From contig JACPQY010000024.1 of the NCBI GenBank assembly GCA_016190245.1, positions 121,620 through 185,619 on the forward strand: 64,000 nucleotides of DNA, in the 5' to 3' direction. This document shows, in pieces, positions 50,317-53,404 of the stretch. Position numbers and translations under genes: made by a program. This stretch comes from Nitrospirota bacterium (GTDB lineage: Bacteria; JACPQY01). Below the pieces are notes generated by a model that saw only the letters and a list, made by a program, of their open reading frames with translations, was not told the origin of the DNA and made no database searches. Numbering within the stretch: position 1 is the stretch's first letter; each line of letters begins with the position of its first letter.

Positions 50317-50946
50317 CTACAACCACCCCCACGAAGCGAAAACGGCAAGGCAGACCGCGTCGAACGCGTACAGGAAGCCCACCGTCGTCGCCTTTCGGCG
50401 CACCGTCGGCATGTCATGCACCCAAGAGGCCGTGAGAAACATCGGGAGGTAGCCGAAAAGGAAGATCAGCCACGGCGACCGGGCCGACCACCACGGGTAG
50501 TCCCACGCCAAGGCCCCGATCGAGTTGAGGGCGATCTCAACAAGCACGCAGATCACGCTGAACCCGCACGCGATCACGAGGCGGTTGGGCAGCCCGGCCA
50601 GCTTCATCGCCCTGTCGCGGGGCAGCACCTGGGCGACAGCCACACCCATGACGAGGAACATCAGACAGATCTCGATGTTGAGGCCGATCACAATCAGATA
50701 GGCCGTTCCCGCCGGCGCGCCCCAGATCGGCGCGTACTGCGTGAAGTGGAACACGAGCCCGTTGACGATTTCGTTGAACCAGTCCACCCCCCACAGGGCC
50801 AGCCCCGCGAACACGATGTCCCAGTTTTTCCGCCCGATCTCGACGTGATAGATGTAGATCGCGATCACGAGGATCGGGATAACATGCCACTGGAAATGCG
50901 ACCCATCCCTCAGGATGGACATCGCTTGGGCGGCCGAGGGTGTCAT
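50317..50946 (-). CDS. Hypothetical integral membrane protein (6 TM)
   Basis: 209 aa, W-rich TM helices, no recognised family. An upstream (5-prime) region carries palindrome site 1. Confidence 0.55.
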   Translation of the reverse strand: MTPSAAQAMSILRDGSHFQWHVIPILVIAIYIYHVEIGRKNWDIVFAGLALWGVDWFNEIVNGLVFHFTQYAPIWGAPAGTAYLIVIGLNIEICLMFLVMGVAVAQVLPRDRAMKLAGLPNRLVIACGFSVICVLVEIALNSIGALAWDYPWWSARSPWLIFLFGYLPMFLTASWVHDMPTVRRKATTVGFLYAFDAVCLAVFASWGWL

Positions 50947-51050: not shown

Positions 51051-51082
51051 ACTGTACACTGACCGGCCGTCTTATGTACAGT
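51051..51082. promoter_or_regulatory. Composite palindrome site 1: ACTGTACA-ct-GACCGGCCGTC-tta-TGTACAGT
   Basis: Perfect 8-bp inverted arms plus a palindromic GC-rich centre. It lies between the regulator stop (51116) and the membrane-protein gene start (50946). Confidence 0.6.
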
Positions 51083-51115
51083 AAAGATCGCCGGCCTGCA
51101 CACCTGCCGGGCCCA

Positions 51116-51766
51116 TCAAGGCGGGAGGAGGATCATCTCCCCCCAGCAGCAATAGGGCATCACGCCCAAGTCCTCCATGCGTTCGAGCGTCGGCCGCAGC
51201 CGGGCGGGAGGGCCGACGTAGTAGCTGCCGTTGAGCTGAATGAAACCGAACCCGAGAAGACACCTCCGCGCCCGTGCCCGATCCTTCCGCAAGCGTTCGG
51301 GGATGTCATACGAGATGAACGCAGCCCGCCGCTTGCCCAGACCGACCGATCGCGCGAGCATCCGTCGGAGCCCGTGGAAGCGGTCCTGGCGGCTCATCTT
51401 CCTGGCGGCCTTCTCGACTTCGGCCAACCGCCTCCCCGTGACCCCTTGCCCTCCGGCGCCGGTGGAATCCGAAGCCCGTTCCCACTCCGGAAGGCTTCGT
51501 GCCCCCTTGGGCGTCAGCGCAATCCGTTTCTGTCTACGCAGTCCCTGCATCCTGACCAGCCCGGCTGCGGCCAGGCGGTAGAGGTAGCGGTACGTATGCG
51601 CGGACCTGCGGCTCGGATTCTGATCCACAAACACGAACTGTTCTCGTAGGCTCAAGACACGCACCAGTTCGTTGACGAGGATGGGCGCGGCCACGTCCTG
51701 GGCGAGGACCCGGAGGATGGCGAGATTCAACCGGCTGCGGACTCGGCGGCGTTCCCCGGGCGTCAT
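51116..51766 (-). CDS. PaaX-like transcriptional regulator: N-terminal winged HTH plus Cas2-like middle domain (no PaaX C-terminal domain)
   Basis: 216 aa. wHTH region LNLAILRVLAQDVAAPILVNELVRVL...YRYLYRLAAAGLVRM. The C-terminal RRAAFISYDIPERLRKDRARARRCLLGFGFIQLNGSYYVG follows the Cas2-fold pattern (..YDV....RR.K.AK.L.DYG.RVQ.SV..) that also forms the middle domain of PaaX-family repressors. Confidence 0.55.
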   Translation of the reverse strand: MTPGERRRVRSRLNLAILRVLAQDVAAPILVNELVRVLSLREQFVFVDQNPSRRSAHTYRYLYRLAAAGLVRMQGLRRQKRIALTPKGARSLPEWERASDSTGAGGQGVTGRRLAEVEKAARKMSRQDRFHGLRRMLARSVGLGKRRAAFISYDIPERLRKDRARARRCLLGFGFIQLNGSYYVGPPARLRPTLERMEDLGVMPYCCWGEMILLPP

Positions 51767-51773
51767 GCCGGAT

Positions 51774-51805
51774 ACTGTACACTAGACGGCCGTCCAATGT
51801 ACAGC
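51774..51805. promoter_or_regulatory. Composite palindrome site 2: ACTGTACA-cta-GACGGCCGTC-caa-TGTACAGC, 8 bp upstream of the regulator start codon
   Basis: Same architecture as sites 1 and 3. It overlaps the expected promoter/RBS region of the minus-strand regulator gene, suggesting autoregulation. Confidence 0.6.
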
Positions 51806-51974
51806 AAGACCCCCGCCATGGGTGACCCAATCGAGAGGCGGCGTTCCCCACCACCCTGCCGGTCCAGACCGCTGCGAGACCGTGGGCAAATCCCTCCCAG
51901 ACGACATCATCCCGCGCCGGCGGCGGGACGTCGGCTGAGCCTCGCGAGCCGCGCACCTGACTCGTGGTGCGTAT

Positions 51975-52006
51975 ACTGTACATAAGACGGCCGTTCACTG
52001 TACAGT
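51975..52006. promoter_or_regulatory. Composite palindrome site 3: ACTGTACA-taa-GACGGCCGTT-cac-TGTACAGT, ~125 bp upstream of the + strand gene 52132..52566
   Basis: Third copy of the 32-bp composite palindrome within 1 kb. Confidence 0.6.
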
Positions 52007-52131
52007 AGAAACGGAGGCCGTCGCGGACCGCCGCGCCTCCCGATACGTGGCTGTGCCGTCGCCGACGGGGCGGCGGTGGGTCGCAAGCCCCAAGCCTGAT
52101 CCCCAAGGACCGTTGACGCTGGGCGCACCGC

Positions 52132-52566
52132 GTGCGCCCAGCGTCAACGATGAAGACAACCATGCCCACTGACGGCTTCGCTGAGGCCGTCCGCTATTAC
52201 AGAAACGCCCGTGAGTTGCTCGGTCGGTGCAAGGTGGAGGACAACCGCTACGAATACATGAAACCGGTCAGGGAGTCCTTCGGCACGGCTTGGCTCGCCT
52301 TCGATCACGCCGCCAAGGTCGCACTGATCCAGAGTGGAGTTGATCCGAAGAAGATGCCCAGAACGTGGGATGCGCTCCTGGCGGAGGTCAGGAAGCGCCT
52401 CGACGCGCACAACGGCAAGCTCGTCCGGCTCCTGAGCGACGCCTACCAAGTCGTCCACATCGCAGGCTACTACCACGGGGAATTCCGCTTCGCCCCCTTG
52501 GCCAAGGACGGTCTGCAGGTGGTCCGTCAAGGCATCGGAAAACTCTCCGGCCGACGGATCGGTTGA
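52132..52566 (+). CDS. Hypothetical helical protein (144 aa)
   Basis: Coding-like ORF (YYRNARELLGRCKVEDNRYEYMKPVRESFGTAWLAFDHAAKVALI...). No confident family assignment. Confidence 0.45.
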   Translation: MRPASTMKTTMPTDGFAEAVRYYRNARELLGRCKVEDNRYEYMKPVRESFGTAWLAFDHAAKVALIQSGVDPKKMPRTWDALLAEVRKRLDAHNGKLVRLLSDAYQVVHIAGYYHGEFRFAPLAKDGLQVVRQGIGKLSGRRIG

Positions 52567-52587
52567 AAGTCGCAGGTCTGTCAGCGC

Positions 52588-53404
52588 GCCATCTCGGGAT
52601 CGAACTCCTCGGCTCGCGAGAGCAGACTTTCGACCTCCTCCGCAAGATCAACCAGCCAAGACCACCGAGCCGCGATGATATCCTGGGCATGGGCGAGTTC
52701 GTTGCGAAGATCCTCCAGTTCCTCCAAGAGCACTTCTCAATCGCTCTTCGACGGAAGGCCAAGCGCCGACACAAGCTGCGGGGTCTCCAGTACTATCGTC
52801 CTCTTGTCCGCAAACTGCAGGCAATCGGCCAAGTAAGCCGCTTCGTTTCTTCTCTGCCGGTGCTCGAAGATGGCCCGCTTCCAGTCCCGTGAACAACAAC
52901 GGCGTCTGACACGGCGCTTCGGGCGCCCCATCCAGCGAACACTGAAACACAACCGCCTCGCTCGCGCAGAGGACGAAGCTCGCGGCGGTCTCTTTCGTAT
53001 TCCACTGTGTCCGTGGCCGGCGTCGTCTGGCCGGGCTCGCACGAAGGCAACCGGCTGAGCGTCGCTTCCCCTTCCACAAACCCGATCCCCGCCACGTGCG
53101 GCGTGAGATCGATCCAGTTGATGACCACCGCCACCACCAGCCCTTGCTTGTTCAGCTCCTCAACGAGCATCGAGGCGAACTTCTCCACCGCGGCCTTCAC
53201 CTGCTCCTCGGAAGGCTTCGTGGCCTTGTCCAACGCCGCCTCCTCCCCCATCGTGACCGCCTCAAGCAACGTGGAGATGCCGTCCCCGTCCACATCCGAC
53301 AGTTCCGCCTCGCCCGCGGCGATGTCTCGCTCCTCCACCTCCATGGCGCCTGGCTGATCGCTGACCGCCGACGGCTGAATGCTCATCTTCAGTGCCGTCC
53401 GCAC
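52588..53404 (-). pseudogene. Fragmented paralogue of the giant surface-protein family (DxDGDG motif and CxxC-x-LDG Ig-like domain) with at least two frameshifts and an in-frame TGA
   Basis: Frame A (53404 to ~53045): ...AELSDVDGDGISTLLEAV...EEQVKAAVEKFASMLVEEL, compare PDSDGDGVSDLIEVV...EAQIKEIFRTLGQELV in 25463..29491. Frame C (~52990-52880): EAVVFQCSLDGAPEAPCQTPLLFTGLEAGH, compare AYRCALDGAEPEPCPATLAL/AFQCSLDGGPFKAC. Frame B (~52883-52740) ends ...GLPSKSD, then TGA, then EVLLEELEDLRNELAHAQDIIAARW... in the same frame. Confidence 0.5.

What the first reader, a model, noticed from the sequence alone, without database searches (positions are those of the whole stretch)
51051..52006. PaaX-like regulator (wHTH + Cas2-like domain) framed by three 32-bp composite palindromes
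Three near-identical sites of the form ACTGTACA-n2-3-GAC(C)GGCCGTC-n3-TGTACAGT lie within 1 kb, at 51051-51082, 51774-51805 and 51975-52006. Each combines perfect 8-bp outer inverted arms with an internally palindromic GC centre. Site 2 ends 8 bp from the regulator's start codon (autoregulation). Site 1 precedes the divergently arranged membrane-protein gene 50317..50946, and site 3 precedes 52132..52566. The 216-aa regulator ends in RRAAFISYDIPERLRKDRARARRCLLGFGFIQLNGSYYVG, a Cas2-fold-like signature. This domain is also the middle domain of PaaX-family repressors, but here the PaaX C-terminal domain is missing, so this is a short PaaX-like variant with a clearly defined candidate operator set.
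Basis: partly seen in the sequence, partly recalled or inferred. Interest (0 to 1): 0.6.

Follow-up and report, generated by a model that had tools for sequence, protein, structure and literature searches.

The report
Short PaaX-like repressor with bookend operators
A small DNA-binding regulator from an uncultured Nitrospirae bacterium sits among three near-identical 32-bp palindromes that are almost certainly its own binding sites; it is an ordinary kind of self-controlling switch, with one unusual and conserved trait, a second copy of the site just after the gene's stop codon.

Summary
Three sites of the form ACTGTACA-N5-CGGCCG-N5-TGTACAG(T/C) lie at 51051-82, 51774-805 and 51975-52006. Shuffles of the window give none, and there are no further copies in the 64 kb.

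The 216-aa protein (51116-51766, minus strand) passes Pfam's cut-off for PaaX_M, the Cas2-like middle domain of PaaX. Its AlphaFold model is a winged helix, three helices and a beta-alpha-beta-beta-alpha-beta domain. That domain matches Cas2, and the model also matches E. coli PaaX. No PaaX C-terminal effector domain is present.

The family is rare: about 14 full-length representatives among 1.84 billion proteins. In 7 of 12 family loci, a genome-specific composite palindrome occurs both just before the start codon and 5-57 nt after the stop codon. The palindrome usually coincides with the best promoter-like hexamers.

Best reading: a dimeric autorepressor whose operators overlap core promoters. 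In this genome it probably also controls a DUF5618 gene and perhaps a membrane-protein gene.

One correction: the membrane gene is co-directional with the regulator, not divergent. Binding, the inducing signal and the role of the downstream "bookend" site are untested.

This is a new variant of a known kind, of moderate interest.

The parts
51116..51766 (-). Regulator gene, 216 aa. [quoted passage not shown] It has no PaaX_C effector domain.
   Evidence: ORF. Pfam PaaX_M 27.2 bits against a cut-off of 24. 100% identical to MAG Nitrospirae bacterium HYY13_03820. The start codon agrees with homologues. AF2 model. Foldseek matches to Cas2 and PaaX.
51774..51805 (.). Site 2: composite palindrome 7 nt upstream of the regulator's ATG. 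It is the candidate autoregulatory operator and coincides with the best promoter-like hexamers on the minus strand (TGTACA-18-TACAGT, 8/12). The 7-nt gap and the lack of a Shine-Dalgarno sequence suggest a leaderless mRNA.
   Evidence: Equivalent sites lie upstream of homologues.
51051..51082 (.). Site 1: composite palindrome 33 nt after the regulator's stop codon and 104 nt upstream of the co-directional membrane-protein gene. This is the 'bookend' copy.
   Evidence: With its flanks it is 94% complementary (35 nt) to site 3 (I1). Homologous downstream copies occur in 6 other family loci.
51975..52006 (.). Site 3: composite palindrome 201 bp from site 2 and 143 nt upstream of the DUF5618 gene. 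Relative to its outward-facing gene it has the same orientation as site 1.
52150..52566 (+). DUF5618 gene (138 aa from ATG 52150), divergent from the regulator. Candidate regulated gene.
   Evidence: Pfam DUF5618, 5e-18. Gene call in Logan contigs.
50317..50946 (-). Membrane-protein gene (209 aa; called as 201 aa elsewhere), downstream of and co-directional with the regulator. Possible regulated or co-transcribed gene.
   Evidence: ORF. Precomputed Pfam PF27271 AF_1327. No hit in the local Pfam copy.
52111..52149 (+). Perfect 18-bp stem with a 3-nt loop, ending at the base before the DUF5618 ATG. It lies within the putative 5' leader downstream of site 3.
   Evidence: I4; the leader folds at -88.9 kcal/mol, z = -4.3. 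It is unique in the window.

Best explanation
The 216-aa protein is a short PaaX-like transcriptional repressor. Its Cas2-fold domain makes it a dimer (inferred from PaaX and Cas2). The two winged helices read a long composite palindrome: outer arms TACTGTACA/TGTACAGTA about 24 bp apart, plus a central GA-CGGCCG-TC.

Site 2 overlaps the core promoter of the regulator's own gene, with -35-like TGTACA and -10-like TACAGT 7 nt before the ATG and no Shine-Dalgarno sequence. Bound protein would therefore exclude RNA polymerase, giving negative autoregulation of a probably leaderless mRNA.

Sites 3 and 1 are near-identical to each other when each is read in the direction of its outward gene. They place the divergent DUF5618 gene, and perhaps the downstream membrane-protein gene, under the same control. 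Three sites 201 and 723 bp apart would allow cooperative binding or looping.

Because the PaaX C-terminal effector domain is missing, the signal that relieves repression is unknown.

Shown: the sites, the domain architecture, and the family-wide co-occurrence of regulator and palindrome.
Inferred: binding, dimerisation, promoter overlap, repression and regulon membership.
For: - Three sites where shuffles give none, and no other copy in 64 kb.
- Not a generic repeat in public genomes or metagenomes.
- PaaX_M above Pfam's cut-off and in 11 of 14 family members.
- The AF2 model and Foldseek matches to Cas2 and PaaX 8a39. The N-terminal domain is weakly MarR/PadR-like.
- Comparative evidence: in 7 of 12 family loci the flanks upstream and downstream of the regulator gene share a palindrome, matching 19-23 of 24 positions. 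The shuffle maxima were 16-19, and L022 exceeds its maximum by only one position.
- Every genome has its own sequence. The three closest relatives (48-50% identity) keep the CGGCCG core, while more distant ones have CAGGTG, CACGTG or ACGT cores. Outer arms all contain TGT/ACA.
- In 8 of 11 loci with an upstream palindrome, the best sigma-70-like hexamer pair upstream of the regulator overlaps it. In L007 it ends 2 nt before the palindrome. In L008 and L010 only lower-ranked or tied pairs lie on the palindrome.
- Where the site is 3-13 nt from the ATG there is no Shine-Dalgarno sequence. Where it is 15 nt or more away there is one.
- E. coli PaaX also uses widely spaced inverted arms, TGATTC-N27-GAATCA, and represses its own promoter by steric hindrance (PMC9493321).
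- Sites 1 and 3 are 94% complementary over 35 nt, including the non-palindromic spacer positions. They therefore have the same orientation relative to their outward genes.
Against: - No binding data exist.
- The window's site reaches only 8/12 against the E. coli promoter consensus, and the standard scan reports no promoter. Nitrospirae promoters are not characterised here.
- The neighbouring genes are not conserved among family loci. Regulon membership of the DUF5618 and membrane genes therefore rests only on site position.
- The downstream copy occurs even where the next gene is convergent (L001, L006, L017), so site 1 may have nothing to do with the membrane gene.
- It is unclear which part of the composite site the winged helices read.
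- Five of 12 loci show no downstream copy. In L019 and L020 the next called gene starts within 8 nt of the stop codon or overlaps it, leaving little intergenic room.
Confidence: 0.68

Rival explanations
1. The palindromes act as RNA stem-loops in the 5' and 3' untranslated regions of the regulator's mRNA and in the neighbours' leaders. They would stabilise, terminate or control translation of the mRNA, rather than serve as DNA operators.
For: - On the sense strand, site 2 folds into a continuous stem (14-15 pairs, depending on the flanks folded) using G-U pairs: -19.6 kcal/mol against -10.9 for the antisense strand.
- The sites bracket the coding sequence the way UTR hairpins would.
- Several upstream sites fold better in sense than in antisense (WIN, L005, L016, L022).
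Against: - There is no consistent strand bias across the family. L001-up, L010-down and L020 favour antisense, and L017, L008 and L007 are equal.
- The L006 and L005 sites are very weak as RNA (-1 to -3 kcal/mol for most), although they are conserved as sequence between the two ends.
- The three copies in the window keep identical arm sequences rather than showing compensatory changes.
- The best promoter hexamers lie inside the palindrome, so most of it would not be transcribed.
- No U-tract terminator is present.
Confidence: 0.12
2. The regulator gene with its flanking inverted repeats is, or was, a small mobile or invertible cassette. Sites 1 and 3 would be 35-bp terminal inverted repeats, and the wHTH-Cas2-like protein would act on them as a nuclease or recombination factor.
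For: - Sites 1 and 3 form a 35-nt, 94% inverted repeat enclosing 890 nt with the gene.
- In L006 the two asymmetric sites are inverted relative to each other, matching 22 of 24 positions.
- Gene neighbourhoods differ in every family locus.
- The Asp of the Cas2-type 'YDI' motif (D154) is invariant.
Against: - Each repeat is itself a palindrome, which is typical of dimer operators and not of transposon ends.
- In L017 the asymmetric cores are in direct orientation, so the geometry is not consistent.
- No target-site duplication is visible beside sites 1 and 3.
- No second copy occurs in the window.
- Proteins found on two contigs (P0009, P0011, P0014) sit in what looks like the same neighbourhood as far as the contigs overlap.
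- No relatives occur in plasmids, phages or viral contigs.
- There is no compositional anomaly.
- No known recombinase or transposase domain is present.
Confidence: 0.05
3. The palindromes are bound by some other factor, or are chance local duplications, and the adjacent wHTH-Cas2-like protein is unrelated to them.
For: No direct binding evidence links protein and sites.
Against: Across at least 7 (up to 11) family loci at 26-50% identity, the palindrome changes sequence but keeps its position next to the regulator gene and its composite architecture. This is the signature of a regulator co-evolving with its own operator. The site is absent from the other 63 kb of the window.
Confidence: 0.05

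Closest known systems
PaaX, repressor of phenylacetate catabolism (E. coli W, PDB 8A39; Jannaschia sp. CCS1, PDB 3L09)
   Same: - N-terminal winged helix followed by a Cas2-like middle (dimerisation) domain. Pfam PaaX_M is above its cut-off, and Foldseek matches 8a39 at probability 0.96 over 156 columns.
- Long operators with widely spaced inverted arms. PaaX uses TGATTC-N27-GAATCA and represses its own promoter by steric hindrance (PMC9493321).
   Different: - No C-terminal helical domain, which the review assigns to binding of the phenylacetyl-CoA inducer (216 aa against 305 for the 8a39 chain).
- The N-terminal domain does not hit the PaaX N-terminal Pfam family.
- No paa genes are adjacent.
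- The operator has an additional central GC palindrome.
- A second operator copy follows the stop codon.
Cas2 / VapD (ferredoxin-like b-a-b-b-a-b nucleases and CRISPR adaptation subunits)
   Same: The C-terminal 70 residues are predicted to adopt the same fold (Foldseek probability 0.99-1.0, about 75 columns, rmsd about 3 A). They keep a 'YDIP' motif at the end of strand 1, where Cas2 models align (Pfam residues 150-185 to profile 4-36; TIGR01573 residues 151-185 to profile 5-40).
   Different: - Scores are far below the Cas2 cut-offs (12.5 against 23.8 bits; 13.3 against 24.5 bits).
- The domain is fused to a DNA-binding domain.
- No CRISPR array occurs in the 64-kb window.
- No defence-system hit apart from one weak, isolated Cas2 match.
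Short wHTH + Cas2-like proteins of Patescibacteria and other uncultured bacteria (P0018-P0046), some named 'CRISPR-associated endonuclease Cas2' in MAG annotation
   Same: Same two-domain architecture and size (about 160-215 aa). They share the motif (F/Y)DIPE..R..R..LR..L..GF..(L/M)Q.S(V/F)(W/Y).G.
   Different: They match the family profile mainly over the Cas2-like domain, and a few only over the N-terminal domain (E 1e-4 to 1e-7). The family studied here has a longer three-helix linker and a distinct N-terminal domain. Their operators were not examined.
Phage repressors with operators on both sides of the repressor gene (lambda CI with OR/OL; TP901-1 CI with OR, OL, OD). Analogy from my own knowledge, not tested here.
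   Same: The repressor gene is bracketed by copies of its own palindromic operator, with outward-facing regulated genes and several sites hundreds of bp apart that could cooperate by looping.
   Different: Unrelated protein folds. No phage context. Here the bracket is tight, only 5-57 nt beyond the stop codon.

Membership tests
PaaX family repressors | Central Cas2-like domain (Pfam PF20803, PaaX_M) | tested here: met
   27.2 bits against a gathering cut-off of 24, residues 151-205. 11 of 14 family members match. A b-a-b-b-a-b fold is predicted.
PaaX family repressors | PaaX-type N-terminal winged-helix domain (Pfam PF07848) | tested here: not met
   No hit to that family at E <= 1 for the window protein, or at E <= 0.1 for any of the 14 members. 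A winged helix is nevertheless predicted. It is weakly similar to MarR/PadR chains and is covered by the Foldseek alignment to 8a39.
PaaX family repressors | C-terminal helical effector domain (Pfam PF08223, PaaX_C), assigned to phenylacetyl-CoA binding | tested here: not met
   The protein ends at residue 216, four residues after the last strand of the Cas2-like domain. No PaaX_C hit.
PaaX family repressors | Association with paa (phenylacetate catabolism) genes | tested here: not met
   The neighbours are DUF5618, an AF_1327-like membrane protein, an acyl-CoA dehydrogenase, an epimerase and an efflux system. Family loci show unrelated neighbourhoods.
PaaX family repressors | Binds long operators with widely spaced inverted arms that overlap promoters | not testable with these tools
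   Sites of the right kind are present and co-vary with the protein. Binding needs EMSA or footprinting.
Cas2 (CRISPR adaptation protein) | Sequence membership (PF09827 / TIGR01573 above cut-off) | tested here: not met
   12.5 bits against 23.8, and 13.3 bits against 24.5.
Cas2 (CRISPR adaptation protein) | Ferredoxin-like b-a-b-b-a-b fold | tested here: met
   AF2 secondary structure E147-153, H157-172, E176-179, E182-185, H187-200, E206-212. Foldseek matches many Cas2 chains at probability 0.96-1.0.
Cas2 (CRISPR adaptation protein) | Genomic association with cas1 and a CRISPR array | tested here: not met
   No CRISPR-like array in the 64-kb window. No cas gene is called next to any family member. 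The window's larger ORFs were not individually screened for cas1.
Insertion sequence / transposon | Terminal inverted repeats with target-site duplication, a transposase, and multiple copies or variable contexts | tested here: not met
   An inverted repeat is present. However, each arm is itself palindromic, no duplication flanks the repeats, no transposase domain is present, there is a single copy in the window, and there are no plasmid, phage or viral relatives.

The most novel reading that the evidence does not exclude
The regulator gene plus the two copies of its own palindrome, one at the start codon and one 5-57 nt past the stop, is a self-contained cassette. It is conserved in 7 of 12 family loci whatever the neighbours are. 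On the most novel reading, the bracket is the point of the system. The wHTH-Cas2-like protein retains the Cas2-type Asp (invariant D154). It would act on the two bracketing sites as a site-specific nuclease or recombination factor, or as a loop-forming insulator, making this a previously unrecognised kind of minimal selfish or self-insulating gene module rather than a plain repressor.
Probability: 0.07. Interest if true: 0.8.

Novelty: new variant of a known kind. Interest (0 to 1): 0.42.

Why it matters
This locus gives a clean, testable regulator-operator pair for a protein family with no characterised member. The architecture is PaaX stripped of its ligand-binding domain.

The family supplies about seven to eleven natural operator variants. 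These could show how a Cas2-fold dimer positions two winged helices on a 32-46 bp composite site, and which part of the site each element reads.

The conserved operator copy just past the stop codon is not explained by ordinary promoter control. It could reveal a looping, insulating or antisense mechanism.

Practically, the wider set of wHTH + Cas2-like proteins that MAG annotations label 'Cas2' are probably regulators, which matters for CRISPR censuses in uncultured bacteria.

Tried and rejected
- **Generic repeat.** Rejected. No other copy in the window, and only isolated, unrelated matches in the genome and metagenome collections.
- **Central motif alone.** GACGGCCGTC with up to 1 mismatch is not enriched in the window: 12 found against about 8 expected.
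- **Known RNA family.** Only a sub-threshold FinP match caused by the hairpin at 52111-52149.
- **Structured RNA between sites 2 and 3.** z = +0.7 and +0.3 on the two strands, so none.
- **Canonical promoter or terminator scan.** Nothing at 9/12 or better and no U-tract terminators.
- **Strand-specific RNA hairpin test across the family.** No consistent bias.
- **Mobile-element tests.** No relatives in plasmids, phages or viral contigs, no PADLOC or PHROG hits, and flat GC content.
- **The search for related loci in genomes and metagenomes with the family alignment.** No confirmed relatives. Family loci had to be fetched one by one through the look-up of encoding contigs.
- **Sequence search of PDB.** Only weak MarR/PadR hits with the full-family profile and nothing useful with the C-terminal domain alone. 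The PaaX and Cas2 relationship rests on Pfam and on fold comparison.
- **Literature.** No paper in the library treats PaaX and Cas2 together, and the E. coli PaaX structure paper is not held.
Full report
**1. The observation**

- Site 1, 51051-51082: ACTGTACACTGACCGGCCGTCTTATGTACAGT.
- Site 2, 51774-51805: ACTGTACACTAGACGGCCGTCCAATGTACAGC.
- Site 3, 51975-52006: ACTGTACATAAGACGGCCGTTCACTGTACAGT.

Allowing three mismatches, the pattern ACTGTACA-N16-TGTACAGT finds only these three places in 64 kb. Shuffles give a mean of 0.03, and none of 100 reaches three. The octamer ACTGTACA occurs seven times against 0.27 expected. Six of those are in the three sites, and the seventh (9389) is an isolated half-site inside coding sequence.

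All three sites share the exact geometry ACA-N5-CGGCCG-N5-TGT, and the palindrome extends one base outward (TACTGTACA...TGTACAGTA). Centre-to-centre distances are 723 and 201 bp.

The motif is not a dispersed repeat. A scan of one genome per species (185,579 species) gave five hits and a scan of JGI metagenomes gave ten. All are single sites in unrelated organisms, none has the full arms, and none is near a homologue of the regulator.

**2. The gene layout**

The regulator is 51116-51766 on the minus strand, 216 aa. Site 2 is 7 nt upstream of its ATG. Site 1 is 33 nt downstream of its stop codon.

The membrane-protein gene 50317-50946 is on the same strand, 104 nt beyond site 1.

The divergent gene is the DUF5618 gene (ATG 52150 to 52566; Pfam 5e-18). 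It lies 143 nt beyond site 3.

The source is a Nitrospirae MAG (protein HYY13_03820, 100% identity). The surrounding genes are ordinary chromosomal ones: an epimerase, an acyl-CoA dehydrogenase, and OEP/HlyD efflux components. GC content is flat across the region. There is no CRISPR array in the window and no phage or defence hit beyond one weak Cas2 match.

**3. The protein**

Pfam PaaX_M ('PaaX protein central Cas2-like domain') scores 27.2 bits against a cut-off of 24, over residues 151-205. Cas2 models score only 12-13 bits.

An exhaustive HMMER search of 1.84 billion representatives found only about 14 full-length relatives (P0002-P0014; E from 1e-126 to 1e-15). It also found a tail of shorter proteins that share mostly the Cas2-like domain. 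The family is therefore rare.

The alignment shows these invariant residues: R10, I17, L62, T85, G88, L92, Y153, D154, P156, S181, G185, L190, E198, W208 and G209. The 'SYD(I/L/V)P' motif sits at the end of strand 1, where Cas2 profiles align.

AlphaFold with the 14-sequence alignment gives pLDDT 79. The model has these parts:
- helices to residue 42 (the nearly invariant P28 probably splits them);
- a low-confidence variable loop, residues 43-54;
- helix 52-67;
- a beta-hairpin wing, residues 71-84;
- three linker helices, residues 86-141;
- a b-a-b-b-a-b domain, residues 147-212.

Foldseek against the PDB returns Cas2 and VapD chains at probability 0.96-1.0 over about 75 columns. It returns E. 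coli W PaaX (8a39) at probability 0.96 over 156 columns. A profile search of PDB sequences gives only weak MarR/PadR winged-helix hits for residues about 47-105.

No member hits the PaaX N-terminal or C-terminal Pfam families, and the protein ends four residues after the last strand. Strictly, though, the protein is a PaaX_M-containing relative and not a PaaX.

**4. Comparative evidence that the palindromes belong to the regulator**

I fetched the DNA around eleven relatives.

Seven of twelve loci, counting the window, carry the same composite palindrome twice. One copy lies just upstream of the ATG and one lies 5-57 nt after the stop codon. The best ungapped 24-mer match between the two flanks is 19-23 of 24. 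The maxima of 30 shuffles per locus were 16-19, and L022 exceeds its maximum by only one position.

Each genome has its own sequence:

| Locus | Protein | Core | Arms or flanks |
|---|---|---|---|
| L001 | P0002, 50% identity | CAGCGGCCGCTG | arms diverged |
| L005 | P0003, 48% | TAACGGCCGTTA | AACA / TGTT |
| L006 | P0004, 44% | CAGGTG | TACA(A/T)TA(A/T)C...TGTA |
| L010 | P0007 | TACACACGTGTGTA | TGTATA...TATACA |
| L017 | P0009 | GTATCAGGTGATAC | TTTGTGCAAA...TTTGCACAAA |
| L022 | P0014 | GTCTCACGTCGGAC-like | GGAATGTAAC...GTAACATTCC |

Four of the remaining loci have a single upstream palindrome of the same style:
- L008: a perfect 16-bp inverted repeat around CAGCGACAGGTGTAAAC.
- L016: TTTTACA-N23-TGTAAAA.
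- L020: GATAAGCTTATC with AT-rich arms.
- L007: AACACAAGC-N19-GCTTGTGTT.

In L019, whose contig begins only 84 nt upstream of the gene, no palindrome was identified.

The inner core tracks protein relatedness. The three closest proteins share CGGCCG, and more distant ones have CA(G/C)(G/C)TG or ACGT. The outer arms always contain TGT/ACA. Sequence that changes while position and architecture stay fixed is what a regulator co-evolving with its own operator looks like.

**5. Relation to promoters (inference)**

For each locus I scored sigma-70-like hexamer pairs upstream of the regulator. In 8 of the 11 loci with an upstream palindrome the top-scoring pair overlaps the palindrome:
- Window: TGTACA-18-TACAGT, 8/12, exactly site 2.
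- L001: TTGACA-17-TAATGT, 9/12.
- L006: TTTACA-17-TATTGT, 9/12.
- L020: 9/12.
- L005, L022 and L017: 7-8/12.
- L016: 10/12, with the -10 hexamer overlapping the left arm.

In L007 the top pair (11/12) ends 2 nt before the palindrome. In L008 and L010 the top pair lies at the edge of or beside the palindrome, and only lower-ranked or tied pairs sit on it.

Where the site ends 3-13 nt from the ATG (window, L001, L005, L006, L022) there is no Shine-Dalgarno sequence. Where it is 15 nt or more away (L008, L010, L016, L017) there is one. This fits a -10 element in the promoter-proximal arm and leaderless or near-leaderless mRNAs.

By the E. coli consensus the window's site is weak, and the standard scan reports no promoter. 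This step therefore remains an inference.

E. coli PaaX is a good functional parallel. Its operator is TGATTC-N27-GAATCA, and it represses its own Px promoter by steric hindrance of RNA polymerase (review PMC9493321).

**6. Sites 1 and 3**

With their flanks, sites 1 and 3 are 94% complementary over 35 nt (I1). This includes the non-palindromic spacer positions.

Read in the direction of the outward gene, both are ACTGTACA-TAAGA-CGGCCG-(T/G)TCA(C/G)-TGTACAGT. The same orientation relative to the DUF5618 gene and the membrane gene is what outward-facing operator-promoters would show. This supports, but does not prove, that both genes are controlled.

Against a simple reading for site 1: the family-wide downstream copy is present even where the next gene is convergent (L001, L006, L017). 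The 'bookend' is therefore a property of the regulator cassette itself.

I could not resolve its role. Looping, a roadblock or insulation against read-through, an antisense promoter, and a 3' hairpin all remain possible.

**7. Rivals**

*RNA hairpins.* Site 2 folds on the sense strand into a continuous stem of 14-15 pairs using G-U pairs (-19.6 against -10.9 kcal/mol). Across the family, however, there is no consistent strand bias, and some conserved sites are very weak as RNA.

*Mobile cassette.* The 35-bp inverted repeat around the gene and the variable neighbourhoods are suggestive. Several observations weigh against it:
- Each arm is itself palindromic.
- The asymmetric cores are inverted in L006 but direct in L017.
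- There is no target-site duplication and no second copy.
- Proteins seen on two contigs sit in what looks like the same context as far as the contigs overlap.
- There are no relatives in plasmids, phages or viral contigs.

*An unrelated binding factor.* This is made unlikely by the co-variation described in section 4.

**8. What is known, and novelty**

The architecture is catalogued: Pfam has PaaX_M as a separate domain. A wider group of about 160-215 aa wHTH + Cas2-like proteins exists, and one cluster is labelled 'CRISPR-associated endonuclease Cas2' in a Patescibacteria MAG. I found no paper in the held library that treats short PaaX-like proteins or links PaaX with Cas2.

The finding is best classed as a new variant of a known kind. 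It is a PaaX-like repressor without the effector domain, with a three-part composite operator and a conserved operator copy behind its own stop codon.

A specialist would not be surprised by an autoregulated winged-helix repressor. The conserved bookend site and the absence of any sensing domain are the interesting parts.

Interest 0.42. Confidence in the operator-repressor model is about 0.68.

Noticed in passing
window 52111-52149 (and leader 52007-52149): A perfect 18-bp stem with a 3-nt loop (CGTTGACGCTGGGCGCAC-CGC-GTGCGCCCAGCGTCAACG) ends at the base before the ATG of the DUF5618 gene. The whole 143-nt putative leader folds unusually well (-88.9 kcal/mol, z = -4.3). It is unique in the window and gives only a sub-threshold FinP match. 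It could be a translational or attenuation element, or another protein's palindromic site.
   Followed up: partly
window 51767-52149: The divergent intergenic region is long (383 bp) and about 68% GC, above the GC of the adjacent genes. It has no convincing ORF, no Rfam hit, and no excess RNA structure between sites 2 and 3 (z = +0.7 and +0.3).
   Followed up: partly
window 52563-52892 (+) and 52581-52733 (-): Public gene calls place a 109-aa gene overlapping the DUF5618 stop codon, while the opposite strand has a 50-aa helical-looking ORF. Neither has any Pfam, PADLOC or PHROG hit, so which one is real (if either) is unclear.
   Followed up: partly
L016 1-80 (JGI Ga0439197_0481227): This public metagenome contig begins with Illumina adapter sequence (AATGATACGGCGACCACCGAGATCTACAC...GCTCTTCCGATCT). 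This is an assembly contaminant directly upstream of a family member.
   Followed up: no
L002 and L003 (Logan contigs of the same organism), 3' ends: Both contigs end exactly 65 nt after the regulator's stop codon, at the outer edge of site 1. The palindrome or inverted repeat apparently breaks the assembly.
   Followed up: no
L008 1-118 (GCA_020063115.1, JAGUVA010000196.1): Upstream of the homologue P0006, the 20-mer CTTCAGCGACAGGTGTAAAC occurs twice in direct orientation. The second copy is nested in a perfect 16-bp inverted repeat (AACTTTGTAGAGTCTT / AAGACTCTACAAAGTT). This is a more elaborate operator layout than in the other loci.
   Followed up: no
proteins P0018-P0046, e.g. cluster of P0043/P0049 (HJN84842.1): A larger set of about 160-215 aa proteins combines a winged helix with an 'FDIPE..R..R..LR..L..GF..LQ.SVW.G' Cas2-like domain. 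One cluster is annotated 'CRISPR-associated endonuclease Cas2' in a Patescibacteria MAG. These are probably short PaaX-like regulators that are mis-named.
   Followed up: partly
window 50317-50946 (-): The membrane protein downstream of the regulator has no hit in the local Pfam copy. The precomputed annotation assigns it to PF27271 (AF_1327), an uncharacterised family named after an Archaeoglobus protein.
   Followed up: no
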